Shown here: positions 2,836 through 55,935 of the stretch, piece after piece
Position numbering within the stretch: position 1 is the first letter of the stretch
Layout: each line of letters begins with the position of its first letter
Assembly (NCBI GenBank): GCA_041583775.1
Contig: JBFHFF010000004.1
Coordinates: forward strand, 66,428-130,427
Reading direction: 5' to 3'
DNA: 64,000 bases
From: Candidatus Moraniibacteriota bacterium
GTDB lineage: Bacteria; Patescibacteriota; Minisyncoccia; Moranbacterales; DUUL01
Program-made: the position numbers and the translations under genes
The notes under the pieces: generated by a model
The model's database searches: none
What the model was told of the DNA's origin: nothing
The model's input: the letters and a program-made list of their open reading frames with translations, nothing else

Positions 2836-3390
2836 CTATTTTTTAAAAGGAGTTTTAAAATCCTTAAAGTTCTGTAAATTATTGTCCTTTTCTGAAGTTA
2901 TCGGATTTCTATCAAGTGGCCACTCAATAGCTAGTATTGGATCATTCCAAACAATTCCACTATCCGATTCTGGAGCATATAAATTATCAACTTTGTAAAC
3001 AAATTCTGTGTTTTCCTCTAATGTGCAAAAAGCGTGAGCAAATCCCCTTGGAATATATAACATTTTCTTATTTTTTGCAGAAAGTTCAAATCCCTCCCAT
3101 TGTCCAAATGTGGCAGAGTCTTCCCTTAAATCTACAATAACATCATAGACACTGCCCGCAACAACTCTAACGAGTTTTGATTGAGCATTAGGTGGAAGTT
3201 GAAAGTGCAACCCTCTCAAAACCCCCTTCTCAACTGAGAGCGAATGGTTGTCTTGAACAAAATCATCTTTGATTCCATTTTTTGCAAATAGCTCTTTTGA
3301 ATATGATTCTAAAAAGAAGCCTCTGTGATCTTCAAATACCTTTGGCTCAATTAAAAAAGCACCTTCAAATTTTGTTTTGATAAAATTCAT
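2836..3390 (-). CDS. rmlC: dTDP-4-dehydrorhamnose 3,5-epimerase
   Basis: Cupin-type RmlC sequence (FEDHRGFF...), 184 aa. Confidence 0.85.
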   Translation of the reverse strand: MNFIKTKFEGAFLIEPKVFEDHRGFFLESYSKELFAKNGIKDDFVQDNHSLSVEKGVLRGLHFQLPPNAQSKLVRVVAGSVYDVIVDLREDSATFGQWEGFELSAKNKKMLYIPRGFAHAFCTLEENTEFVYKVDNLYAPESDSGIVWNDPILAIEWPLDRNPITSEKDNNLQNFKDFKTPFKK

Positions 3391-3477
3391 TATCTATTTA
3401 TTTTTAAAGTTAATTAAAAGCAAAATAATTTTAGCACGCGAAATTATTTTTTAAAAGCTTTGATAAAATATAATAAA

Positions 3478-3508
3478 AATGCCTCAGTTTAAAACTGAGG
3501 CATTTTTA
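3478..3508. terminator. bidirectional intrinsic terminator
   Basis: 12-bp perfect stem aatgcctcagtt/aactgaggcatt with a 3-nt loop (taa), A-run before and T-run after. Confidence 0.65.
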
Positions 3509-3520
3509 TTATATTAAATT

Positions 3521-4909
3521 CTATTCTTCTTTGCTAATCTCCCAGTCTTCCCTCAATTCAACTTCATATCCTGAGCCCTTACCTTCCTTATCTATAATTT
3601 TAATCTTACCTGCGACTGAAGCAATCCCTGATTGCTTTTGAATAAGAATTTTGTAGTCTTCAAAAGTTACATTCTCAGGTAAATCATATGCAAATGAAAT
3701 CGTTTTAATCGTTCCAACGGGAACATTTACAATTCCACCAAAGAATTTCTTACCTCCCTCGGTTCCATACTTAATCTGAGAAATATTCTCGGAACTCGCC
3801 AACCAACTGTTATTTGGCACAAAAATTCTCAAATAAGAGCTGTAGTCCTTAATATACCAATTTCTTTGCCTTCCTGTATGACTATAGACAATATCCAATG
3901 TTGCTCGTGGCTTTTCTTGAGAAAAATCAATTGTATAATCAAAAGTTCGCTTCATTACTTGATCAGTCTTATATGAAGCCAAATTTGCATCAACCATCAT
4001 TAAAAAATCTTGTTGTGCATCTTTTAGTTTTCCGTCCCAACCAAGTGTTTTAATTTTTTCCTGAAGTTCGACATCCTTGAAATAAACCATCACATCCTTT
4101 TCATTTAAATGCTTCTCCGCCTTTTCCAATAGCATTCTCTTGTCAGAAAGACTCATTTTTTCAGCTTTTTTTAAAATTGCTTTTGCCAAATCTTTCATTA
4201 TATATTTTCTTTCACCCTCGGATATACCTTGCTCTACATAACCTTTTTCGACTTGATATTGAAGTTTTTCAATAGCATTTTCAGCATTATATTCCCCTGA
4301 AAAACCAGGAATCGTTACGGGTCCTGTAATTTCCAAAAATGAAGGTAGCAACTTTGTAGAGATAGCAACTACACCATCAAGGCTCTCCGCCCCACCCTCA
4401 AGACGATACAATTCTTCTGCTTTTTCTGCGTTTACCATAAAATCTGGTGACCAATTTGAATCTCTTAATTCCCAATCAGAAACTCCTAAAAGAGCTTCCA
4501 TTGGAAATGGTGGTGTAACTTTTGTATCAACCCCAGAATCAAATACATTTGTATCATGAGTATCTATTGCAATAACACTCTCCCCCTTAATCTTTAAAAT
4601 ACCAAAAGAACCTATGTATCCGCCCCCGGGACGCAATTCGTTGTTGTTTTGAAATAAAATCAAAAAAGTTTTTTCTTTATTTGTTGCTATTTCCGGAACT
4701 ATACTAAAAATCGTAGTTAGTTCTTCTTTTCTTTCATCGTCAATTGGCAAAACCTTAACAACTGAATTTGCAACCTTACTAATTGATACAAATTTGTTGT
4801 TATTTGTTATTTGCAAAAAAAAGTACCAACCAGTTAAAAATAGAATCGCAACAATCCAAAATTTCAATAGAAATTTATTTTGACGACTTTTTTTATCCAT
4901 ATCCAACAT
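3521..4909 (-). CDS. membrane-anchored protein, DUF4012-like
   Basis: N-terminal TM helix and a PGGGYIGSFG motif region; family assignment from memory only. Confidence 0.45.
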   Translation of the reverse strand: MLDMDKKSRQNKFLLKFWIVAILFLTGWYFFLQITNNNKFVSISKVANSVVKVLPIDDERKEELTTIFSIVPEIATNKEKTFLILFQNNNELRPGGGYIGSFGILKIKGESVIAIDTHDTNVFDSGVDTKVTPPFPMEALLGVSDWELRDSNWSPDFMVNAEKAEELYRLEGGAESLDGVVAISTKLLPSFLEITGPVTIPGFSGEYNAENAIEKLQYQVEKGYVEQGISEGERKYIMKDLAKAILKKAEKMSLSDKRMLLEKAEKHLNEKDVMVYFKDVELQEKIKTLGWDGKLKDAQQDFLMMVDANLASYKTDQVMKRTFDYTIDFSQEKPRATLDIVYSHTGRQRNWYIKDYSSYLRIFVPNNSWLASSENISQIKYGTEGGKKFFGGIVNVPVGTIKTISFAYDLPENVTFEDYKILIQKQSGIASVAGKIKIIDKEGKGSGYEVELREDWEISKEE

Positions 4910-4957
4910 ATTTTTTAAATTAAATCTTTTAATAAAATTATTCTTTCTTCCTATTCC

Positions 4958-49559: not shown

Positions 49560-50158
49560 TTATTTCTCAATCACAATAAAATCCCCTTCTTCTAGCGCAT
49601 GAATGGGAAGTGATTTGTCTCCATATTCCTCCAACTCTTTTTTTGCATTTTCCCAATCAATTGGTCCTCTTGGGTCATTATTGCCATAGGTTCCATTGAA
49701 ATGAGGAATAAACTTAATTGGCAGAATTCTCAAACCCTCCAAACAGTCTCTCCAATCACAAGTCCATGAAAAAGTGGTTAGAATACTCGAACCAGCAGAG
49801 CTCGTCGCCACGACTTTTCCTTCAAAAATCTTTTCTAAATCAAATTGATCAAACCAAAATCGCAACACAAATAGTCATCCCCTCCTTGGATAATAATAAT
49901 ATCGTTTTTTTCTGCTTGTTTTTCGAATGTTACTGGAAATGCTAAATCAAAGACTAAGCTATCTGCTTTTCCTGTCAGAGAAGCAAATCTTTCACTATAA
50001 GCTTCAAACCTCGTCTCCCAGCTTTCTCGAGGCTGTGCAAAAAAACAATAGAGAATTCTAATTTCCCCTTCAAAACCAACAAGGATTTCATTCAAAAAAG
50101 CCAACTCCTTCTCGGGATATTTTTTAGCGCCACCCGAATTTAAGATATATTTTGTCAT
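49560..50158 (-). pseudogene. S51 (peptidase E / cyanophycinase-like) peptidase gene split by a single frameshift
   Basis: Upstream ORF ends ...IIIQGGDDYLCCDFGLINLI*; the +1 frame continues LRFWFDQFDLEKIFEGKVVATSSAGS (the S51 SAG nucleophile region) from a GTG. Confidence 0.55.
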
Positions 50159-50210: not shown

Positions 50211-50250
50211 AAAAACAAAAAATCCATCGCATATGCGAGGGATTTTTTTA
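50211..50250. terminator. bidirectional intrinsic terminator at the edge of repeat copy 1
   Basis: A-run, atccatcgcatatgcgagggat imperfect palindrome, T7. Confidence 0.55.
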
Positions 50251-50463
50251 TGTGGACCCTAGTAACTTTTCTTGGAACACCTTCTTAAATACCATTGTTG
50301 AGTGGCAACCTACCATCCAAAGGATTAAACAAGGCTTTGTTTAATCGCTTATATAAAGAATTCTGTGCTATATAACATATACACAATAGGATAATGGAAC
50401 ATCTATACGTACAAGGCATTAAAATATGAAGAGATTTCAATAAATAGAAGGTGGTATTTTGAA
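50222..50463. repeat. copy 1 of a ~245-bp diverged direct repeat (att-like element)
   Basis: About 88% identical to 51831..52075 by manual alignment; starts with tatgtggaccctag, which matches the tRNA-Ala 3' end. Confidence 0.8.
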
Positions 50464-50531
50464 AAAAGCGAATGTTCAGGGGGCATCCAAAAAACAATCT
50501 TTATTTAGATCATTTTAAAGGACGCGCACTT

Positions 50532-51101
50532 CTATAAGCCATTTCTTACAAAAGAAAACAGCTCATCTACTGTCTTCTTTTCTATGAACTTACCATACGC
50601 TCCGTACTTATTATTGAATTCTACGAAAAGTTCTTTATAGTTTTTAGAAAAATCTGGAGAAGTTAAATCAGGCCCTTGATCTAAATTTTGAAACATAAAT
50701 TTTCTCATTCTCACAAGACCAGTATATTGCTTCTTTTCATTCTCATTAAAAAGAGTATCAATTAAATAGATTTCATAAGCAACATAAAAAGTAGCTAGAT
50801 TGCAAACGACTTGGTCTGAATTTAAAATATTCAAACCTTTTTTAAAAATCTCGTCCTCTTCTTCGATTAATCTTCTTTTTATGTCATCATCTTCAATTCC
50901 TTCTAAATCTTTTTCAAAATCATATGTTAAGTTAGGGATTGCCCAATTTAAAGCTCGTGCTAGCAGTTGCAACCCAAATTCATCATTCTCTAATTTCTCT
51001 TCTTCTATAAATTTATCAGCGACTCCCATAACTATAGCATCGTGAATGAGATTATTCGCTTTTAAGGCATTTTTAAGCCTATTTTTCTTTAGCCAAAACA
51101 T
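50532..51101 (-). CDS. hypothetical protein (189 aa)
   Basis: ORF between the two repeat copies; no motif I recognise. Confidence 0.5.
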   Translation of the reverse strand: MFWLKKNRLKNALKANNLIHDAIVMGVADKFIEEEKLENDEFGLQLLARALNWAIPNLTYDFEKDLEGIEDDDIKRRLIEEEDEIFKKGLNILNSDQVVCNLATFYVAYEIYLIDTLFNENEKKQYTGLVRMRKFMFQNLDQGPDLTSPDFSKNYKELFVEFNNKYGAYGKFIEKKTVDELFSFVRNGL

Positions 51102-51274
51102 ACTTTTAGTTATTACTGCTTAATATTTTCACCTTCATTTTTTCTCTTTTTCCAAAATTATTGTGAATTCTACATTTTTCCCGTATCTTTTATCTCAAAT
51201 TTACGAGAGGGTTCAAAGCAGGGGCCATTGAACCCACTATAAAACAAAACACCAGACGTTCATTTTTCGATTCC

Positions 51275-51583
51275 CTATCTTAGATGATTTATAGAATCCT
51301 CTATTTCATTAAGCATACTCCTAGTTTCGAAGTCATTATAATCTTTTTTATCTTGTATGGACTTCAACTTATCAGTCAATTCAAAATTTTCATTCAAACT
51401 TTTGATAAGATTGTTCTTTTGAAAGACTTTACTATGATAATACGCCACCAATCCCAACATCCCATAATATGGCAAAGCAACCGCCCAAACAGAGTCAAAT
51501 TCAACAACTGCAAAATAAATCAAAACGGGAACAACAAAAAGAACAACTAAAAAGAATGAATTCCATAAATTCCCTTTTGACAT
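51275..51583 (-). CDS. small two-TM membrane protein with a charged C-terminal tail (holin-like topology)
   Basis: Two hydrophobic helices followed by a K/D/E-rich tail. Confidence 0.5.
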   Translation of the reverse strand: MSKGNLWNSFFLVVLFVVPVLIYFAVVEFDSVWAVALPYYGMLGLVAYYHSKVFQKNNLIKSLNENFELTDKLKSIQDKKDYNDFETRSMLNEIEDSINHLR

Positions 51584-51830
51584 AATAAATCAATTTAACA
51601 ATTAAATAATTAATTCACAAGTTCAACTGCTTCTGCCTTAAACCCTTAAACACTCCATCTCCTTAACATCACCCTCATCTGCCACGTAGCAACGTTTATT
51701 CTATATCAACCCAAAACTCGCTACATTTAAAGTTTACCACCTAAGACTAAATAAGAAAACCTCAGTAAAGCAATATTTTTTCCAATACCCCCTTGCATTC
51801 AAATCCACAACAAACTATTCGTAAACAAAA

Positions 51831-52075
51831 GAATCCCTCGCTGATGCGAAAGATTCCTTTTTGTGTGGACCATAAAGACTTTTATTGTAACACCTTTTTA
51901 AATACCATTATTGAGTGGCAACCTACTGTCAAAAGGGTTAAACAAAGCTTTATTTAATAGCTTATATAAAGAATTCTGTGCTATATAACATACACGCAAT
52001 AAGATAATGGAACATTTATACGTATAATGCGTTAAAATATGAAGAGATTTCAATAAATAGAAGGTGGTATATTGA
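51831..52075. repeat. copy 2 of the ~245-bp direct repeat, with an adjacent terminator hairpin at 51831..51863
   Basis: Manual alignment to copy 1; gaatc...gattc hairpin plus T-run; tgtggaccataaag is a degenerate copy of the tRNA-Ala 3' end. Confidence 0.8.
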
Positions 52076-52235
52076 ACGATGTCCGAACTTTTTTTATTGA
52101 AAAGGAGAAATGTACCGACTCTTTTGCTGTGGCAAATTTAGCTTATTAAAGATATTTAGTTATTTTTGAATATGCCTCATACTCTCATTGCTAGTAAAAA
52201 GCTTGATGAAAGAAGGGCATATCAAAAAATGAAGG

Positions 52236-53204
52236 TTAGTAAGAAAAACTTTCAAAACTTTTTATATCATTTCTTAAATTAGTTTTTCTTGTGATAGCTC
52301 CGTCACTTGCTCTTTCAATAATATTTCCTACAGAAAACTTTCCTAGTTTATTTTTTGTGTAAAGGTTTTTTGCAAAATACAACTCTGCTTCTGGACTCCT
52401 ACCAAAATTATTCGCATTTATAATATGTGTCTCGCAATAAATGATAGCGCTTACTTCTTTAAGCTGATTATTGCAAAAATAATTTGTTGGTATTCGAACT
52501 TTTCTAGCATCTTTTTCAATTTCTATATGTTCCCTAAGCTCATAACCCATCCCATCTGAGGAGCCTCCTCTCATCGGGAATACATCGTTTCCCCTCCCAT
52601 AAACTGTTGCTTCTATTGCACGGCCTCTAAATAGAGTTTCGGTATTATTTCCATTAATAGCGATTAAAAATGGTTCACATTCACTACATACATTACCCAA
52701 ATATTTTTCCCTATACTTTTTGTATTTCTTTGTCAGGGCATTGCTTATCCTTGCTATTCGCGGATCAAGAGCTTTGTAAATATCGCCACTTTTTGGGCTG
52801 TCATCAACTTCCTTATTTTTTCCAGGTGTAGTTATAATAGCTTCAATCCAAATATTTCTTCCATTCACTCTTACCTGTATATCAGGTCCCTTTCCATTGT
52901 TTGGAACCAATTCATAGCCATTATCCATAAGAACTGTTGCTAAATACATTTGCCAAGAAAATGCGTTAAATCCTCTGTTCTTTCTCGAGCGTAGATTCTT
53001 GAGAAAGTTTGGCTCGGCATATTTTTCATATCTCCCCCATAAAGACTCAAGCCATTTTTTCGTCTCTTCCCTACCCTTTCCACAACAAGTAATTATATAA
53101 GTAGAATCAAGACTTGGATTGTCCTTAATGCATTTTTTCAGCTCATCATCAGATGTAATCTGAGCAAAATCGTGAATAAATATTTTTTCGTGTCTACTTT
53201 TCAT
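52236..53204 (-). CDS. hypothetical protein (322 aa), possibly with a PD-(D/E)xK-like nuclease core
   Basis: GPDIQVRVNGRNIWIEAI resembles a PD...E motif, but the Lys is not evident; last gene of a three-gene operon; its start overlaps the upstream stop (ATGA). Confidence 0.5.
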   Translation of the reverse strand: MKSRHEKIFIHDFAQITSDDELKKCIKDNPSLDSTYIITCCGKGREETKKWLESLWGRYEKYAEPNFLKNLRSRKNRGFNAFSWQMYLATVLMDNGYELVPNNGKGPDIQVRVNGRNIWIEAIITTPGKNKEVDDSPKSGDIYKALDPRIARISNALTKKYKKYREKYLGNVCSECEPFLIAINGNNTETLFRGRAIEATVYGRGNDVFPMRGGSSDGMGYELREHIEIEKDARKVRIPTNYFCNNQLKEVSAIIYCETHIINANNFGRSPEAELYFAKNLYTKNKLGKFSVGNIIERASDGAITRKTNLRNDIKSFESFSY

Positions 53205-53581
53205 TGTTTTTTATTAATATTAGCAATAAATTCCTCCAAGACATCTAGCACGGATAAAAATTCTCTTACTCTGCTTAGCTTGTTTATATTCTTCTTGTAT
53301 TCTAATTCATATCTAGCGAGTATAACTCTGTACTCGAAGATATCACTTTCCGAAGGAAATGCAGAAGGAAACATTCTGTAAACGAATTTTAGTAATCTTT
53401 CATTTTCTTCTATTCCCATTTTATGCTTATTCTCATATTCTTTTTCAACAGAATTTTCTTCCCAACCAACAGTCATTCTCCCCATTCCTCTAAAAAAATT
53501 TTTAAAATTTATAAGCTCATTAATTTTATTTTCAGAACTTTCGAAATAAGGGAAAAAAGGAATGTAATCATACCTGACCAA
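53201..53581 (-). CDS. hypothetical protein (126 aa; alternative start at 53485)
   Basis: The long form overlaps the upstream gene by 73 nt; the ATGA overlap with the downstream gene implies translational coupling. Confidence 0.5.
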   Translation of the reverse strand: MVRYDYIPFFPYFESSENKINELINFKNFFRGMGRMTVGWEENSVEKEYENKHKMGIEENERLLKFVYRMFPSAFPSESDIFEYRVILARYELEYKKNINKLSRVREFLSVLDVLEEFIANINKKQ

Positions 53582-54756
53582 GAAATCGGTTCCGTATCTG
53601 AGAACAAGCCATAGAATATTTTACTTAATTTTGGATCATATCCTACATTTCCTGAAATATTGTCCGATATTTTCTGCTCGGACCAAAAAATTACTTCTCT
53701 TAAGGAAACAAATGGTATTCTTCTCTTAGACTCCAAATTTTTAGCTTTTATTTTCCATTCCTTTGGATATGCTTTCCAAAACATCCACTCACTACTTATC
53801 TTATCTGAATTTGAAAACAAAATAGAGAGAAAAGAAATGAAAAAATTTTCAATATATTCAATATCATCAGAGTGTTTATCAAGATGAATTTTTACCAACC
53901 GCAAATATCGTCCATAACTTTTATCAAGAGATTGGATTTCTATATATTCCAGTACGGGATAAATTTCATAATCAAATGGAAACCATTTTTCGCTTTCCCC
54001 ATACCTTTCGGCTTTATAATACCATTCAAGTATTTCTTCTAAAGGAGACTTTTTTCCTGAATATATCAAGAAATCCTTATCTCTGTTCTCAATATTTCTA
54101 GAAAAATTGCCAAGTAAACTATTCAGAAGAGGTGTACCCTCTCTTTTATCAATCAAAATATTTATATTTTTTGAAAATATCTCAAAAAATTCCAACTCGC
54201 TATTTCTGTCATTTTCTTTAACTTTCCATACCGAAGTCCAAGCAGAAACATATTCTCTATCCTCTCTTATTTTTTTCAGAAATCCGTACCTATGATAATA
54301 TGGATCTTTTATCCAAATAATAAAATCGAGAATTATTTTAATTAATATACCTATTCCAACTAGCCAAATTACAAGTAATACATTTCTCATAACAAAACCA
54401 CTACCAAACCAAAAAAATGATGGCAAATATGACAACAAAAGAGTTATCAATATCAACCTGACATCAAATACTCTGTTTATAATTACTATCAAATCTAATT
54501 CTGAATAGTTTATATTTTCATTGTTTCTCTTAGTTCTAAAATAATCAGACAGCACCGCTATGGCCAAAGGAATCAATATTGTAAAGAGGGCTATGTTCAC
54601 ATTATGAAAATAATTTCCTAATTCCATAACTTGATTAGCAGTGTTGATACTTAAATATAAAAAAATAAACAAGAATATCACTTCTAAAATAAAAAATATC
54701 ACTTCTTTTTGGGAAAGTTTTTTTTGAAATGCTTTTCTCAACATTTTGTTTAACAT
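53509..54756 (-). CDS. hypothetical membrane protein (415 aa; 4 N-terminal TM helices plus a ~270-aa cytoplasmic domain)
   Basis: Hydrophobic N-terminus; no motif I recognise. Confidence 0.55.
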   Translation of the reverse strand: MLNKMLRKAFQKKLSQKEVIFFILEVIFLFIFLYLSINTANQVMELGNYFHNVNIALFTILIPLAIAVLSDYFRTKRNNENINYSELDLIVIINRVFDVRLILITLLLSYLPSFFWFGSGFVMRNVLLVIWLVGIGILIKIILDFIIWIKDPYYHRYGFLKKIREDREYVSAWTSVWKVKENDRNSELEFFEIFSKNINILIDKREGTPLLNSLLGNFSRNIENRDKDFLIYSGKKSPLEEILEWYYKAERYGESEKWFPFDYEIYPVLEYIEIQSLDKSYGRYLRLVKIHLDKHSDDIEYIENFFISFLSILFSNSDKISSEWMFWKAYPKEWKIKAKNLESKRRIPFVSLREVIFWSEQKISDNISGNVGYDPKLSKIFYGLFSDTEPISWSGMITFLFSLISKVLKIKLMSL

Positions 54757-55199: not shown

Positions 55200-55682
55200 T
55201 GCATAAATATTAACTTTCCAGATACCATAGAAAAATGGAATGCTACTGCAAGGGAGTTAGCACTAAAAGAAAAAGAAGTTGAAAATTACATCGACCTGCT
55301 GGCAAAAACCGCCAGTGATGTTGTTAGAAAGAAATATGAGCTTAGAGTCGAAGCCCTTGAGGAAGAGATTTCGGCATTAAAAAAACAGCCCTCGGTTGCT
55401 AAGCACCTGAACTGTGAAGACGCTATTTCAGAAGTATTGCATTTTCTTGGAACACCTGCTGATTATTGGCAAAAAACCAATCTGGAAGGCAAATTTATGG
55501 TACACAACCTTATATTCACAGAGAATCCAATCTTTGACTTGCAAAATGGATTTGGAACACCTAAAACTTCCCTTCCCTTCGCAATAAAAGACGCCATTCA
55601 CAATGACGTCTCTTCTATGGTGGACCCTAGGGGATTCGAACTCCTGACCTCCTCAGTGCAAATGAGGCGCTCTACCAACTGA
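55200..55682 (+). pseudogene. start-less remnant of a larger gene, tentatively a recombinase C-terminal coiled-coil tail, reading into tRNA-Ala
   Basis: Open frame begins right after a TGA at 55197-55199 with no ATG; heptad-like ALKEKEVENYIDLL...ELRVEALEEEISALKK; runs antisense across the tRNA-Ala 3' end. Confidence 0.3.
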
Positions 55683-55693
55683 GCTAAGGGCCC
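55618..55693 (-). tRNA. tRNA-Ala (TGC) with encoded CCA
   Basis: Cloverleaf by eye; anticodon loop TTTGCAC; G3-U70 alanine identity pair; 3' ...AGGGTCC-A-CCA. Confidence 0.85.
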
Positions 55694-55858
55694 ATATTAA
55701 ACTAATTTTAAATTTCTAATTTTTAAGTTTGAATGAATTTTTTAATTAATCAATTTCAAATTTAAAAACTAAAACTTACCTGGTTTTGCTATTCTTCATT
55801 AATAAATTAGAATTTGATTCGAAATTCACAATTCTTAATTCAAAATTATTTGAAAACG

Positions 55859-55935
55859 CTGTGGGCAATCCAGGAATTGAACCTGGGACCTCGTCATTAT
55901 CAGTGACGCGCTCTAACCATCTGAGCTAATCGCCC
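55859..55935 (-). tRNA. tRNA-Ile (GAT)
   Basis: Cloverleaf by eye; anticodon loop CTGATAA. Confidence 0.8.

What the first reader, a model, noticed from the sequence alone, without database searches (positions are those of the whole stretch)
50211..52075. Two diverged ~245-bp direct repeats, each fused to an intrinsic terminator
Copy 1 is 50222-50463 and copy 2 is 51831-52075. They align by eye at about 88% identity, with near-identical cores such as aataccattRttgagtggcaacctac and taaaatatgaagagatttcaataaatagaaggtggtat. Both copies abut a hairpin plus T-run terminator. The repeats bracket two ORFs, and each sits in the 3' region of a minus-strand gene (the 189-aa ORF and the three-gene operon). 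The ORFs inside the two copies are not conserved, so the element is non-coding. It could be an att/arm region of related integrated elements, a 3'UTR-derived sRNA, or a MITE-like repeat.
Basis: seen in the sequence. Interest (0 to 1): 0.6.

Follow-up and report, generated by a model that had tools for sequence, protein, structure and literature searches.

The report
Twin scars of recombinase-driven island insertion
The two repeats are the right-hand junctions left by two related mobile islands that inserted at the end of an alanine tRNA gene using a serine recombinase; this is an ordinary kind of genome scar, with the unusual detail that each scar carries the detached last 30 codons of the recombinase gene.

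Summary
The repeat is real: 50245-50463 and 51858-52076 are 89% identical without gaps, and each adjoins a diverged hairpin. It is not an sRNA or a MITE. Read in the direction of the minus-strand genes, each copy has four parts:
- about 119 bp of non-coding element DNA;
- 93 bp that encode, on the + strand, the last 30 residues of a large serine recombinase (LSR);
- the 6-bp core GTCCAC, identical to the 3' end of tRNA-Ala(UGC);
- the terminator that follows tRNA-Ala in a related genome.

About 5.4 kb separate tRNA-Ala (55618-55693) from the S51 peptidase gene here; relatives have 0.5 or 2.1 kb there and none of these genes. An LSR C-terminal remnant (55200-55631, + strand) runs into the tRNA antisense. 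In related elements the same tail is either contiguous with the LSR (attP form: L016, L021) or lies 5-6 kb upstream of it on the same strand, at the far end of L020's complete 6-kb element. In 35 of 44 homologous metagenomic loci the LSR's 3' end abuts an antisense tRNA-Ala or tmRNA gene.

So the copies are attR junctions of two decayed, related LSR islands, one carrying a PD-T7-5-like defence gene.

The parts
55861..55935 (-). tRNA-Ile(GAU), the first gene of the tRNA pair
   Evidence: ARAGORN; Rfam tRNA
55618..55693 (-). tRNA-Ala(UGC), the integration target and attL. The crossover core GTCCAC lies at 55620-55625. The encoded CCA and everything downstream come from the element.
   Evidence: ARAGORN; sequence; alignment with the tRNA-Ala 3' ends of relatives, which read ...GTCCACA
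55586..55614 (-). Element-borne replacement terminator for the tRNA operon. It is the antisense of the recombinase's C-terminal codons.
   Evidence: Fold -14.7 kcal/mol, z -3.7, followed by a U-run. An equivalent hairpin sits at the same place in L020, L015, L018 and L022.
55200..55631 (+). Pseudogene remnant: the C-terminal ~140 residues of a large serine recombinase. It has no start codon and reads into the antisense of the tRNA (frame open to 55682).
   Evidence: Translation. Library-wide HMMER: 301 hits, best 5e-42 at 61% identity. Full-length homologues carry Resolvase + Recombinase + Zn_ribbon_recom domains. tblastn with the L020 recombinase matches 55242-55676 at 61% identity, E 3e-50; this is the only recombinase-body remnant in the window.
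53509..54756 (-). Island A cargo: 415-aa predicted protein of unknown function
   Evidence: ORF list; no family hit above threshold
53201..53581 (-). Island A cargo: 126-aa ORF of unknown function
52236..53204 (-). Island A cargo: 322-aa protein resembling the PD-T7-5 / PD-T7-1 anti-phage defence proteins
   Evidence: PADLOC E 2.5e-18 and 5.2e-14; phrog_8571 E 2.6e-23
51958..52076 (.). Copy 2, non-coding part of the element end. In the circular form it lies 3' of the recombinase stop codon.
   Evidence: The corresponding part of copy 1 (50345-50463) is 92.4% identical to it. It is not conserved in other elements.
51865..51957 (+). Copy 2, detached recombinase tail ORF (VDHKDFYCNTFLNTIIEWQPTVKRVKQSFI*). 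The core GTGGAC at 51865-51870 marks attR of island A.
   Evidence: BLASTP of remnant + tail against P0131 runs ungapped across the junction. tblastn to the L020, L055 and L016 tails. Alignment A7.
51827..51862 (-). Copy 2 hairpin + U-run: the chromosomal tRNA-Ile/Ala operon terminator, displaced by island A
   Evidence: Fold -19.2 kcal/mol, z -8.4. Core + terminator + flank (51874 down to 51772) is 77.9% identical over 104 nt to the sequence directly 3' of tRNA-Ala in L013, E 2e-17.
51275..51583 (-). 102-aa ORF between the copies; a weak 2TM-effector-like hit only
   Evidence: PADLOC E 0.044
50532..51101 (-). 189-aa ORF between the copies, function unknown. Probably cargo of the older island.
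   Evidence: No homologue in any fetched locus outside this organism's own assemblies.
50345..50463 (.). Copy 1, non-coding part of the element end
50252..50344 (+). Copy 1, detached recombinase tail ORF (VDPSNFSWNTFLNTIVEWQPTIQRIKQGFV*). The core GTGGAC at 50252-50257 marks attR of the older island.
   Evidence: BLASTP ungapped across the junction to ...IVEW / IQDW of P0131. tblastn to the L020 tail E 3e-7, L016 E 1e-6, L055 E 6e-5.
50214..50249 (-). Copy 1 hairpin + U-run, the same terminator type as the tRNA-Ala terminator in L013
   Evidence: Fold -14.8 kcal/mol, z -6.1. 80-83% identical to both L013 core + terminator copies.
49560..50158 (-). Chromosomal flank: peptidase S51 (peptidase E-like) gene, split here by a frameshift
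   Evidence: Pfam PF03575. Intact 198-aa orthologues sit next to tRNA-Ala in L010-L013.

Best explanation
The window comes from a Patescibacteria (CPR) genome. Two related small integrative elements inserted one after the other downstream of tRNA-Ala(UGC). Both used a large serine recombinase (LSR) whose attP site lies inside the 3' end of its own gene.

Integration at the core GTCCAC, which is the acceptor 3' strand of the tRNA, has three consequences:
- The LSR gene body ends up beside the tRNA (attL), now reading into the tRNA antisense.
- The antisense of the LSR's last retained codons supplies a new terminator for the tRNA.
- The last ~30 LSR codons, plus ~119 bp of downstream element DNA, are carried to the far end of the island (attR). 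There they abut the core and the original tRNA-operon terminator.

Each 'repeat' is one such attR. Copy 2 closes island A (55620 down to 51865, 3.76 kb), which holds an LSR remnant, the 415-aa and 126-aa ORFs and a PD-T7-5-like defence gene. Copy 1 closes an older, more decayed island that retains the 102-aa and 189-aa ORFs.

Shown by sequence: the junction anatomy, the LSR homology, the tail homology, the target preference of the family, and the absence of the island from relatives. Inferred: the order of events; that the older island entered a duplicated pseudo-copy of the tRNA 3' end rather than the tRNA itself; and that neither island can now move on its own.
For: 1. Core. GTCCAC occurs in the tRNA-Ala 3' end (55620-55625) and at the terminator-proximal edge of both copies. 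GTGGAC is invariant in all 7 aligned junctions from 5 sources.

2. Displaced chromosomal flank. What follows the core in each copy is 78-83% identical to the sequence directly 3' of tRNA-Ala in relative L013. The window's own tRNA-Ala is followed instead by a different hairpin.

3. Island absent from relatives. L010-L012 and L013 keep the order L31 / tRNA-Ile / tRNA-Ala / S51 peptidase / MtaB-like gene. The tRNA-Ala-to-S51 gap is 0.5 kb in L010 and 2.1 kb in L013 (where it holds a 380-aa gene), against about 5.4 kb here. None of the window's island proteins has a homologue in those loci.

4. Recombinase. 55200-55631 (+) matches LSR C-terminal regions: 301 hits, best 5e-42. Full-length homologues carry Resolvase, Recombinase and Zn_ribbon_recom domains.

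5. Tail. The + strand ORF of each copy starts in the LSR frame at GTG GAC. BLASTP of remnant + tail against P0131 runs ungapped through the junction.

6. Tail in other elements. Homologous tails are contiguous with intact or partial LSR ORFs in L021 and L016 (attP form). In L020 and L055 they lie 5-6 kb upstream of the LSR on the same strand; for L020 both ends were read, giving a complete 6-kb integrated element.

7. Target preference. The LSR's 3' end abuts an antisense tRNA-Ala gene in 24 of 44 metagenomic loci and a tmRNA gene in 11 of 44. The same holds in L015.

8. Strand of the hairpins. G-U pairs make the copy 2 hairpin perfect only on the minus (tRNA) strand.
Against: - No intact recombinase is present. 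Island A keeps only ~140 C-terminal residues and the older island keeps none, so mobility is historical and untested.
- The left border of the older island cannot be found. There is no core and no LSR remnant between 51584 and 51770. Its history (entry into a pseudo-attB, then deletion) is therefore inferred from the L013 and L010 arrangements.
- The non-coding 119 bp is more conserved between the copies (92.4%) than the tail ORF (84.9%). The model gives that segment no role. Most tail differences fall at first codon positions rather than third.
- Tail homologues were recognised in only 4 of the 47 related LSR loci fetched (L015-L017 and L018-L061): L016, L020, L021 and L055.
- Only 64 kb of this genome was available, so other copies of the arm elsewhere cannot be excluded.
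Confidence: 0.85

Rival explanations
1. The copies are two paralogous small-RNA genes, or 3'UTR-derived sRNAs, on the minus strand, each ending in its own intrinsic terminator.
For: The whole 266-nt minus-strand stretches fold better than shuffles (z -3.4 and -2.3). The substitutions in the RNAalifold hairpin at 50373-50421 mostly keep pairing through G-U pairs on the minus strand, with one compensatory change. The non-coding part is 92% conserved between the copies.
Against: There is no Rfam match even at E = 10. On its own the internal hairpin is no more stable than shuffled sequence (z 0.06 and -0.78). With only two sequences, RNAalifold picks mutually consistent pairs by construction. No promoter-like site is shared by both copies. 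The terminator is accounted for as the tRNA operon's own. The core-proximal 93 bp is accounted for as coding sequence on the opposite strand.
Confidence: 0.05
2. A simple local duplication of ~245 bp, arising by slippage or unequal recombination and then diverging, with no mobile element involved.
For: Only two copies are seen, they lie 1.6 kb apart in direct orientation, and the pattern scans of the public collections found no genuine further copy.
Against: Each copy joins two sequences of different origin at exactly GTCCAC: a recombinase tail on one side and the flank of tRNA-Ala on the other. The same join is seen at the end of an unrelated complete element in L020. The sequence beyond copy 2's terminator continues to match the native flank in L013 for about 60 nt more, and copy 1's does not. 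A duplication would not produce that difference.
Confidence: 0.05
3. A MITE-like non-autonomous transposable element that landed twice near the terminator.
For: The arm is bounded by a weak inverted repeat, ACCACCTTCT ... AGAAGGTGT (18 nt, 72% in copy 2). Short-read assemblies break inside it.
Against: I saw no target-site duplication. Both copies abut the same tRNA-derived core in the same orientation. The assembly breaks are explained by the two copies alone. No genuine extra copy turned up in the pattern scans: the genome scan gave one chance hit, and the viral and metagenome scans gave none. Part of the arm is recombinase coding sequence.
Confidence: 0.02
4. The copies are P-arm regions of tyrosine-integrase elements, with arm-type binding sites in the conserved 200 bp.
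For: tRNA 3' ends are the classical target of tyrosine integrases (reviews PMC5704250, PMC12884075). L013 has a 57-bp perfect repeat of the tRNA end plus terminator, a length more typical of that class.
Against: No tyrosine recombinase was found in the island ORFs or in ten integrase-sized ORFs elsewhere in the window. The only recombinase remnant is a serine type and sits exactly at attL. Identity with the tRNA is only 6-12 nt. The arms contain no convincing repeated arm-type motifs.
Confidence: 0.03

Closest known systems
Tandem accretion of integrative elements and CIMEs (cis-mobilizable elements), e.g. ICESt1/ICESt3-related islands of Streptococcus thermophilus
   Same: Several att-type junctions in direct orientation at the 3' end of one target gene. 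Resident elements have lost their recombinase but keep att sites. A later element integrates beside them (described in review PMC5704250, which cites Pavlovic et al. 2004).
   Different: Those cases use tyrosine integrases and are ICE/IME-related. Here the recombinase is a large serine recombinase, the elements are only about 4-6 kb, and no conjugation or mobilisation genes were recognised.
Large serine recombinase (serine integrase) elements such as phiC31, Bxb1, SPbeta and SCCmec/Ccr
   Same: The Resolvase-Recombinase-Zn-ribbon architecture in homologues. A very short identical core between attL and attR. SCC elements likewise stack in tandem at the 3' end of one conserved gene (from memory).
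   Different: The classical examples target protein-coding or intergenic sites. The IME review notes that serine-recombinase IMEs disrupt dispensable genes, whereas tRNA 3' ends are typical of tyrosine integrases (PMC5704250). Here the target is tRNA-Ala or tmRNA, and attP lies inside the recombinase ORF. My literature searches found no description of such an arrangement for a serine integrase, but they were limited.
Elements whose attP lies inside one of their own genes: the SSV1-type archaeal integrase gene, split by integration, and the 'integration-dependent immunity' mycobacteriophages, whose attP lies inside the repressor gene (both recalled from memory, not checked here)
   Same: Integration changes the C-terminus of an element-encoded protein, because the crossover site is inside its ORF.
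   Different: Those are tyrosine-recombinase systems. SSV1 splits the gene into two large parts, and the mycobacteriophage case affects the repressor. Here only the last ~30 residues of a serine recombinase are exchanged for tRNA-antisense-encoded residues. No functional consequence has been shown.
Genomic islands in tRNA/tmRNA genes that restore the target gene (Islander/TIGER type)
   Same: The island sits at a tRNA 3' end, the tRNA is reconstituted, a fragment of the tRNA end is repeated at the far junction, and the island is absent from relatives (PMC12424338, PMC12884075).
   Different: The repeated tRNA-derived segment here is only 6-12 nt. The conspicuous 245-bp repeat arises instead because two related element ends and two copies of the chromosomal terminator lie side by side.

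Membership tests
attR junction of a site-specifically integrated element | The same crossover core is present at the target gene (attL) and at the far end (attR), in direct orientation | tested here: met
   GTCCAC at 55620-55625 (tRNA-Ala), 51865-51870 and 50252-50257. The core is invariant in 7 junctions.
attR junction of a site-specifically integrated element | Related genomes lack the island at the same locus | tested here: met
   In L010-L012 tRNA-Ala is followed by its own terminator and about 0.5 kb before the S51 gene. In L013 the gap is 2.1 kb and holds a 380-aa gene. The gap is about 5.4 kb in the window, and the window's island proteins have no homologue in those loci.
attR junction of a site-specifically integrated element | DNA beyond the core at attR is the original chromosomal flank of the target | tested here: met
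   Copy 2's core + terminator + flank is 77.9% identical over 104 nt to the 3' flank of tRNA-Ala in L013 (E 2e-17). Copy 1's is 80-83% identical over 58-61 nt.
Large serine recombinase integrative element | An LSR gene (Resolvase + Recombinase + Zn-ribbon domains) inside the element, next to an att site | tested here: inconclusive
   Only a C-terminal remnant of ~140 residues survives (55200-55631). It is 61% identical to the intact 532-aa LSR of L020, and its homologues have all three domains. The catalytic domain itself is absent from the window.
Large serine recombinase integrative element | The reconstructed attP (attL element side + attR element side) exists as a contiguous sequence in a non-integrated relative | tested here: met
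   In L016 and L021 the LSR body, GTGGAC and the tail form one open frame. BLASTP of the reconstructed window sequence is ungapped across the junction.
Large serine recombinase integrative element | Recombination between attP and attB is catalysed by the LSR at a 2-bp crossover | not testable with these tools
   Needs an in vitro or in vivo recombination assay.
Intrinsic (Rho-independent) terminator | A stable G+C-containing hairpin followed directly by a U-run on the transcribed strand | tested here: met
   -14.8 and -19.2 kcal/mol, z -6.1 and -8.4, followed by UUUUUUG and UUUUG on the minus strand. The consensus scanner did not list them.
Structured small RNA / Rfam family | A match to a curated covariance model, or structure beyond chance supported by covariation | tested here: not met
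   No match at gathering thresholds. At E up to 10 the only hits are terminator-like hits centred on the hairpins. The internal hairpin gives z 0.06 and -0.78. Two sequences give no usable covariation.
MITE | Terminal inverted repeats, a target-site duplication, and multiple dispersed copies | tested here: not met
   Only a weak inverted repeat. I saw no target-site duplication. Two copies in 64 kb. No genuine copy in the collection scans: one chance hit in genomes, none in viral or metagenome contigs. The rest of the genome was not available.
CIME-type decayed element in a tandem array | Flanked by att-type sites, with no functional recombinase of its own | tested here: inconclusive
   Island A has attL, attR and a truncated LSR, so it meets the definition. 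For the older island only attR is identifiable and its left border was not found.

The most novel reading that the evidence does not exclude
These repeats expose a clade of compact (~4-6 kb) cargo-carrying elements. Their large serine recombinase targets the alanine-type acceptor 3' end shared by tRNA-Ala and tmRNA, and its ORF spans attP. Integration therefore swaps a conserved ~30-residue C-terminal peptide (WNTF..I.EWxP) for tRNA-antisense-encoded residues. The antisense of the LSR's last retained codons doubles as a replacement terminator for the tRNA. The tail swap could act as a built-in switch that makes the recombinase behave differently in the integrated and excised states.
Probability: 0.3. 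Interest if true: 0.62.

Novelty: new variant of a known kind. Interest (0 to 1): 0.42.

Why it matters
For this window, a puzzling 'non-coding repeat with terminators' turns into a readable history: a tRNA-Ala hot spot in a CPR genome took in two related islands, one of them carrying a defence gene. That sets the island borders to the base.

More widely, the recombinase family behind it has three useful properties, all seen here by sequence only:
- It targets a near-universal site, the tRNA-Ala or tmRNA 3' end (35 of 44 related loci).
- It keeps the tRNA terminated through a dual-use coding sequence.
- It has its own C-terminus rewritten by integration.

If the tail exchange affects activity or directionality, it would be a simple regulatory principle for serine integrases. 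It could also provide a candidate set of integrases with a conserved bacterial landing site.

Tried and rejected
- Rfam at gathering and permissive thresholds found nothing relevant. L007's upstream region also had no tmRNA or Rfam family.
- The two-anchor DNA pattern in GTDB genomes gave one hit, shown by alignment to be chance.
- Arm patterns in viral and JGI metagenome contigs found nothing.
- blastn against the phage and plasmid collections found nothing.
- A protein search with the spurious minus-strand ORF of the repeat, meant to fish out other copies, found nothing.
- A protein search with LSR remnant + tail found nothing, a limit of the word index.
- The LSR alignment against viral contigs found no relative.
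- The idea that the arm is a degenerate copy of the tRNA body or of the tRNA-Ile/Ala spacer was rejected. Local alignment scores were no better than shuffles.
- The idea that the repeat is protein-coding on the minus strand, raised by blocks of 3-periodic substitutions, was rejected. Adjacent mismatches share a phase in 12 of 23 cases against about 7.7 expected (my count, roughly p 0.04-0.05). There is no long conserved frame. The real coding segment is the short + strand tail.
- A tail HMM found no further tails in the other LSR loci.
- A search for a recombinase among the island ORFs and ten integrase-sized ORFs elsewhere in the window found none.
- L015, L016 and L017 are too short to show both ends of an element.
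Full report
**The observation.** The repeat exists as described. The repeat finder reports one 219-nt family, 50245-50463 and 51858-52076, 89% identical without gaps at an offset of 1613. With the adjoining hairpins included, identity is 86.5% over 252 columns. Random 219-nt pairs from the window reach at most 41%. Both quoted cores occur exactly twice, against 0 expected. Each copy ends, at its low-coordinate side, in a hairpin that folds strongly on the minus strand (-14.8 and -19.2 kcal/mol, z -6.1 and -8.4) and is followed by a U-run. In copy 2 the stem is perfect only on the minus strand, because two of its pairs are G-U. All neighbouring genes are on the minus strand.

**Context.** The peptidase S51 gene just downstream of copy 1 has homologues named by their sources as Moranbacteria, Parcubacteria or Patescibacteria proteins, so the window comes from a CPR bacterium. 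Syntenic loci were obtained from four related contigs. L010-L012 are JGI metagenome contigs, and L013 is from NCBI assembly GCA_041596615.1. All keep the order L31 / tRNA-Ile(GAU) / tRNA-Ala(UGC) / S51 peptidase / MtaB-like radical-SAM gene, and so on.
- In L010 only about 0.5 kb separates tRNA-Ala from the S51 gene.
- In L013 the gap is 2.1 kb and contains one 380-aa gene.
- In the window the same tRNAs lie at 55861-55935 and 55618-55693, and about 5.4 kb separates tRNA-Ala from the S51 gene.

That 5.4 kb holds the 415-aa, 126-aa and 322-aa ORFs, copy 2, the 102-aa and 189-aa ORFs, and copy 1. None of these proteins has a homologue in the related loci. The region is therefore an island at the tRNA-Ala 3' end.

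**What the hairpin end of each copy is.** The window's tRNA-Ala ends ...CCCCTAGGGTCCACCA. On the minus strand, copy 1 ends ...GTTACTAGGGTCCACA followed by its hairpin, and copy 2 ends ...CTTTATGGTCCACA followed by its hairpin. In L013 the tRNA-Ala (...CCCCTAGGGTCCACA) is followed directly by a hairpin of the same sequence type, TTCTTCGCATATGCGAGGGG.
- Copy 1's core + hairpin is 80-83% identical to the L013 sequence.
- Copy 2's is 83% identical.
- For copy 2 the similarity continues past the hairpin, giving 104 nt at 77.9%, E 2e-17.

So the 'fused terminator' is the chromosomal terminator of the tRNA-Ile/Ala operon, preceded by a 6-12-nt copy of the tRNA's 3' end. The window's own tRNA-Ala is instead followed by a different hairpin (55586-55614, -14.7 kcal/mol). 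This is the standard signature of integration at a tRNA 3' end: the element supplies a new end, and the old one is displaced to the far junction.

**The recombinase.** Between tRNA-Ala and the 415-aa ORF there is no canonical gene. The + strand frame 55200-55682 is open without a start codon and runs into the tRNA in antisense. A full HMMER search of 1.84 billion representative proteins with 55200-55631 gave 301 hits (best 5e-42, 61% identity). The fragment aligns to residues ~380-505 of 520-535-aa proteins that carry Resolvase, Recombinase and Zn_ribbon_recom domains. It is therefore the C-terminal remnant of a large serine recombinase (LSR). tblastn with two intact LSRs finds no other remnant of the recombinase body in the window.

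**What the conserved arm is.** The C-termini of many homologues look like translated antisense tRNA (for example P0130 ...VDRTGLEPATSSVQMRRSTR). ARAGORN confirms that the LSR ORF in L015 overlaps an antisense tRNA-Ala(UGC). P0131 (locus L016) instead continues past ...LVD into a different tail, with no tRNA on its 1.8-kb contig.

In the window the LSR frame reads ...HNDVSSM-V-D at GTG GAC, which is the core. Each repeat copy carries a + strand ORF that starts at the same GTG GAC in the same frame:
- copy 1 (50252-50344): VDPSNFSWNTFLNTIVEWQPTIQRIKQGFV*
- copy 2 (51865-51957): VDHKDFYCNTFLNTIIEWQPTVKRVKQSFI*

Joining the remnant to either tail gives a sequence that BLASTP aligns to P0131 without a gap straight through the junction, to ...IVEW / IQDW.

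A metagenome scan with the LSR alignment returned 44 related loci. tblastn with the two tails found homologous tails in four loci, and in A7, which aligns seven junctions from these loci and the window, GTGGAC is invariant:

| Locus | Tail position | Relation to the LSR |
|---|---|---|
| L020 | 4412-4501 | About 6 kb upstream of the LSR's 3' end, same strand |
| L055 | 1552-1641 | About 5 kb upstream of the LSR, same strand |
| L021 | 4865-4954 | Inside an intact 532-aa LSR ORF (3359-4957) |
| L016 | 365-445 and 1620-1709 | The second is the end of the LSR ORF (816-1718); the first lies upstream of it |

L020 is a complete 6-kb integrated element. Its parts run in this order:
1. tRNA-Ala(UGC), whose 3' end is overlapped by the LSR ORF.
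2. The 532-aa LSR.
3. A MerR-like ORF.
4. Cargo genes on the opposite strand.
5. The tail.
6. GTGGAC.
7. Chromosomal DNA (tRNA-Ile).

In the A7 alignment the tail shows codon-level conservation across elements that are only about 60% identical in DNA (WN-T/H-F/L ... I/V-x-E/Q-W-x-P). The sequence beyond the tail's stop codon is not conserved, except between the two window copies.

**Family behaviour.** In the 44 loci the end of the LSR match abuts an antisense tRNA-Ala gene (UGC, GGC or CGC) in 24 and a tmRNA gene in 11. Nine show neither; one of these (L021) is in the attP form, and in several the match lies near a contig end. From general knowledge, the tRNA-like domain of tmRNA is alanine-accepting, so the shared target is plausibly the alanine-type acceptor and 3' end. 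In the closest clade (the window, L020, L015, L018, L022) the antisense of the LSR's last retained codons folds into a hairpin plus U-run immediately after the tRNA (-14.5 to -15.4 kcal/mol). The element thus brings a replacement terminator embedded in its recombinase coding sequence. Two more distant members (L024, L034) lack this hairpin.

**Model.** Each repeat is an attR. It consists of element non-coding DNA (~119 bp), the detached LSR tail (93 bp, + strand), the core GTCCAC, and the displaced chromosomal terminator. Copy 2 is the attR of island A (core to core, 55620 to 51865, 3.76 kb). Island A's LSR is truncated and its cargo includes a 322-aa protein that matches the PD-T7-5 and PD-T7-1 defence models (E 2.5e-18 and 5e-14) and phrog_8571. 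Copy 1 is the attR of an older related island.

The order of events is inferred, not shown. The sequence after copy 2's core matches the native flank of tRNA-Ala in L013 for 104 nt, so island A entered the tRNA when that flank was still adjacent to it. Copy 1 must then already have been 1.6 kb downstream. L013 carries a perfect 57-bp second copy of the tRNA end plus terminator, 171 bp after the first. L010 has a degenerate GGGGTCCAG + hairpin just upstream of its S51 gene. A pseudo-target upstream of S51 therefore seems ancestral, and the older island probably used it. Its left junction and its LSR have since been deleted, and I could not find them. This fits the published picture of decay to recombinase-less elements and tandem accretion (review PMC5704250).

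**Rivals.**
- *sRNA.* Rfam finds nothing. The favourable fold of the whole minus-strand stretches (z -3.4 and -2.3) has not been separated from the contribution of the terminator hairpin. The only internal helix that looked supported by substitutions is no more stable than shuffles. No promoter-like site is shared by both copies.
- *MITE.* There is a weak inverted repeat, I saw no target-site duplication, and the scans of public collections found no genuine further copy.
- *Plain duplication.* It does not explain why each copy is a join of recombinase tail and tRNA flank at GTCCAC, nor why the same join closes an unrelated element in L020.
- *Tyrosine-integrase arms.* No such enzyme was found, and the identity with the tRNA is too short.

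**What remains unexplained.**
- The non-coding 119 bp is more similar between the copies (92.4%) than the tail ORF (84.9%) and stops abruptly at 50463. The difference is 9 versus 14 mismatches and may not mean anything.
- Most tail differences are conservative first-position changes (V/I, Q/K, G/S) rather than silent ones. Copy 2 has lost the otherwise invariant Trp of the WN motif, which fits decay after integration.
- Tails were recognised in only four related loci.

**Novelty.** Islands at tRNA genes, displaced tRNA ends and tandem arrays are textbook (PMC12424338, PMC12884075, PMC5704250). Three things look unusual:
- A serine rather than tyrosine recombinase acts at tRNA-Ala or tmRNA. The IME review describes serine-recombinase elements as disrupting dispensable protein genes.
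- attP lies inside the recombinase ORF, so that integration exchanges its conserved C-terminal tail.
- The replacement terminator is encoded antisense to the recombinase's own codons.

Four literature searches turned up no description of this, but they were not exhaustive. The nearest analogies I know of (SSV1 integrase splitting, integration-dependent immunity in mycobacteriophages, SCCmec arrays) are recalled from memory.

**Verdict.** The finding itself is a relic and ordinary in kind. The family it points to is a modestly interesting variant.

Noticed in passing
window 52236-53204 (-): The 322-aa ORF matches the PADLOC models PD-T7-5 (E 2.5e-18) and PD-T7-1 (E 5.2e-14) and phrog_8571 (E 2.6e-23). 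It has no Pfam or PDB sequence match. It is likely anti-phage defence cargo in a CPR genome.
   Followed up: partly
window 49560-50158 (-): The peptidase S51 (peptidase E-like) gene is split into overlapping 107-aa and 102-aa ORFs by a frameshift. The same split appears in independent Logan assemblies (L004, L005). Orthologues in L010-L013 are intact at 198 aa.
   Followed up: partly
window 55618-55935 (-): tRNA-Ile(GAU) and tRNA-Ala(UGC), the pair that usually sits in the 16S-23S spacer, stand alone here. Rfam finds no rRNA anywhere in the 64 kb. The syntenic contigs fetched show the same pair between the L31 and S51 genes.
   Followed up: no
L013 7850-7910 and 8021-8078: The relative GCA_041596615.1 has a perfect 57-bp direct repeat (the last 16 nt of tRNA-Ala plus its terminator), 171 bp apart. 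The roughly 110-bp spacer begins with about 60 nt similar to the sequence after copy 2's terminator in the window. Its origin is unknown: a scar of an earlier integration, or a miniature insert.
   Followed up: partly
L010 8112-8270: A degenerate GGGGTCCAG + hairpin-like sequence lies just upstream of the S51 gene. Together with the S51 upstream region it is 69.6% identical over 161 nt to the window's copy 1 core + terminator + S51 upstream region. This suggests an old pseudo-target or scar shared by the lineage.
   Followed up: partly
L018-L061 (44 JGI metagenome loci): The C-terminal end of this serine-recombinase clade abuts an antisense tRNA-Ala gene (UGC, GGC or CGC) in 24 loci and a tmRNA gene in 11. 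That points to specificity for the alanine-type acceptor end.
   Followed up: partly
window 55586-55614; L020 10325-10376; L015 2070-2120; L018 1665-1718; L022 3672-3725: The antisense of the recombinase's last retained codons forms a hairpin plus U-run directly after the tRNA (-14.5 to -15.4 kcal/mol). This dual-use sequence would re-terminate the tRNA operon after integration. It is absent in two more distant members (L024, L034).
   Followed up: partly
window 50345-50463 and 51958-52076: The non-coding part of the repeat is more conserved (92.4%) than the tail ORF (84.9%) and ends abruptly a few bases after an SD-like AGAAGGTGGT + TTG on the + strand. Substitutions in 50373-50421 keep a weak minus-strand hairpin. 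No function is assigned.
   Followed up: partly
L016 365-445 and 1620-1709: A 1.8-kb Logan contig carries two recombinase-tail segments. One is contiguous with an N-terminally truncated LSR ORF. The other lies upstream of it and is closer to the window's tails. This may be another tandem arrangement.
   Followed up: no
L001, L004, L005, L006 (Logan assemblies of SRR292574xx): Short-read assemblies of the same organism break inside the repeat, at its 33-38-nt identical blocks. The island is therefore scattered over four contigs, and the two-copy structure is visible only in the longer assembly behind this window.
   Followed up: yes
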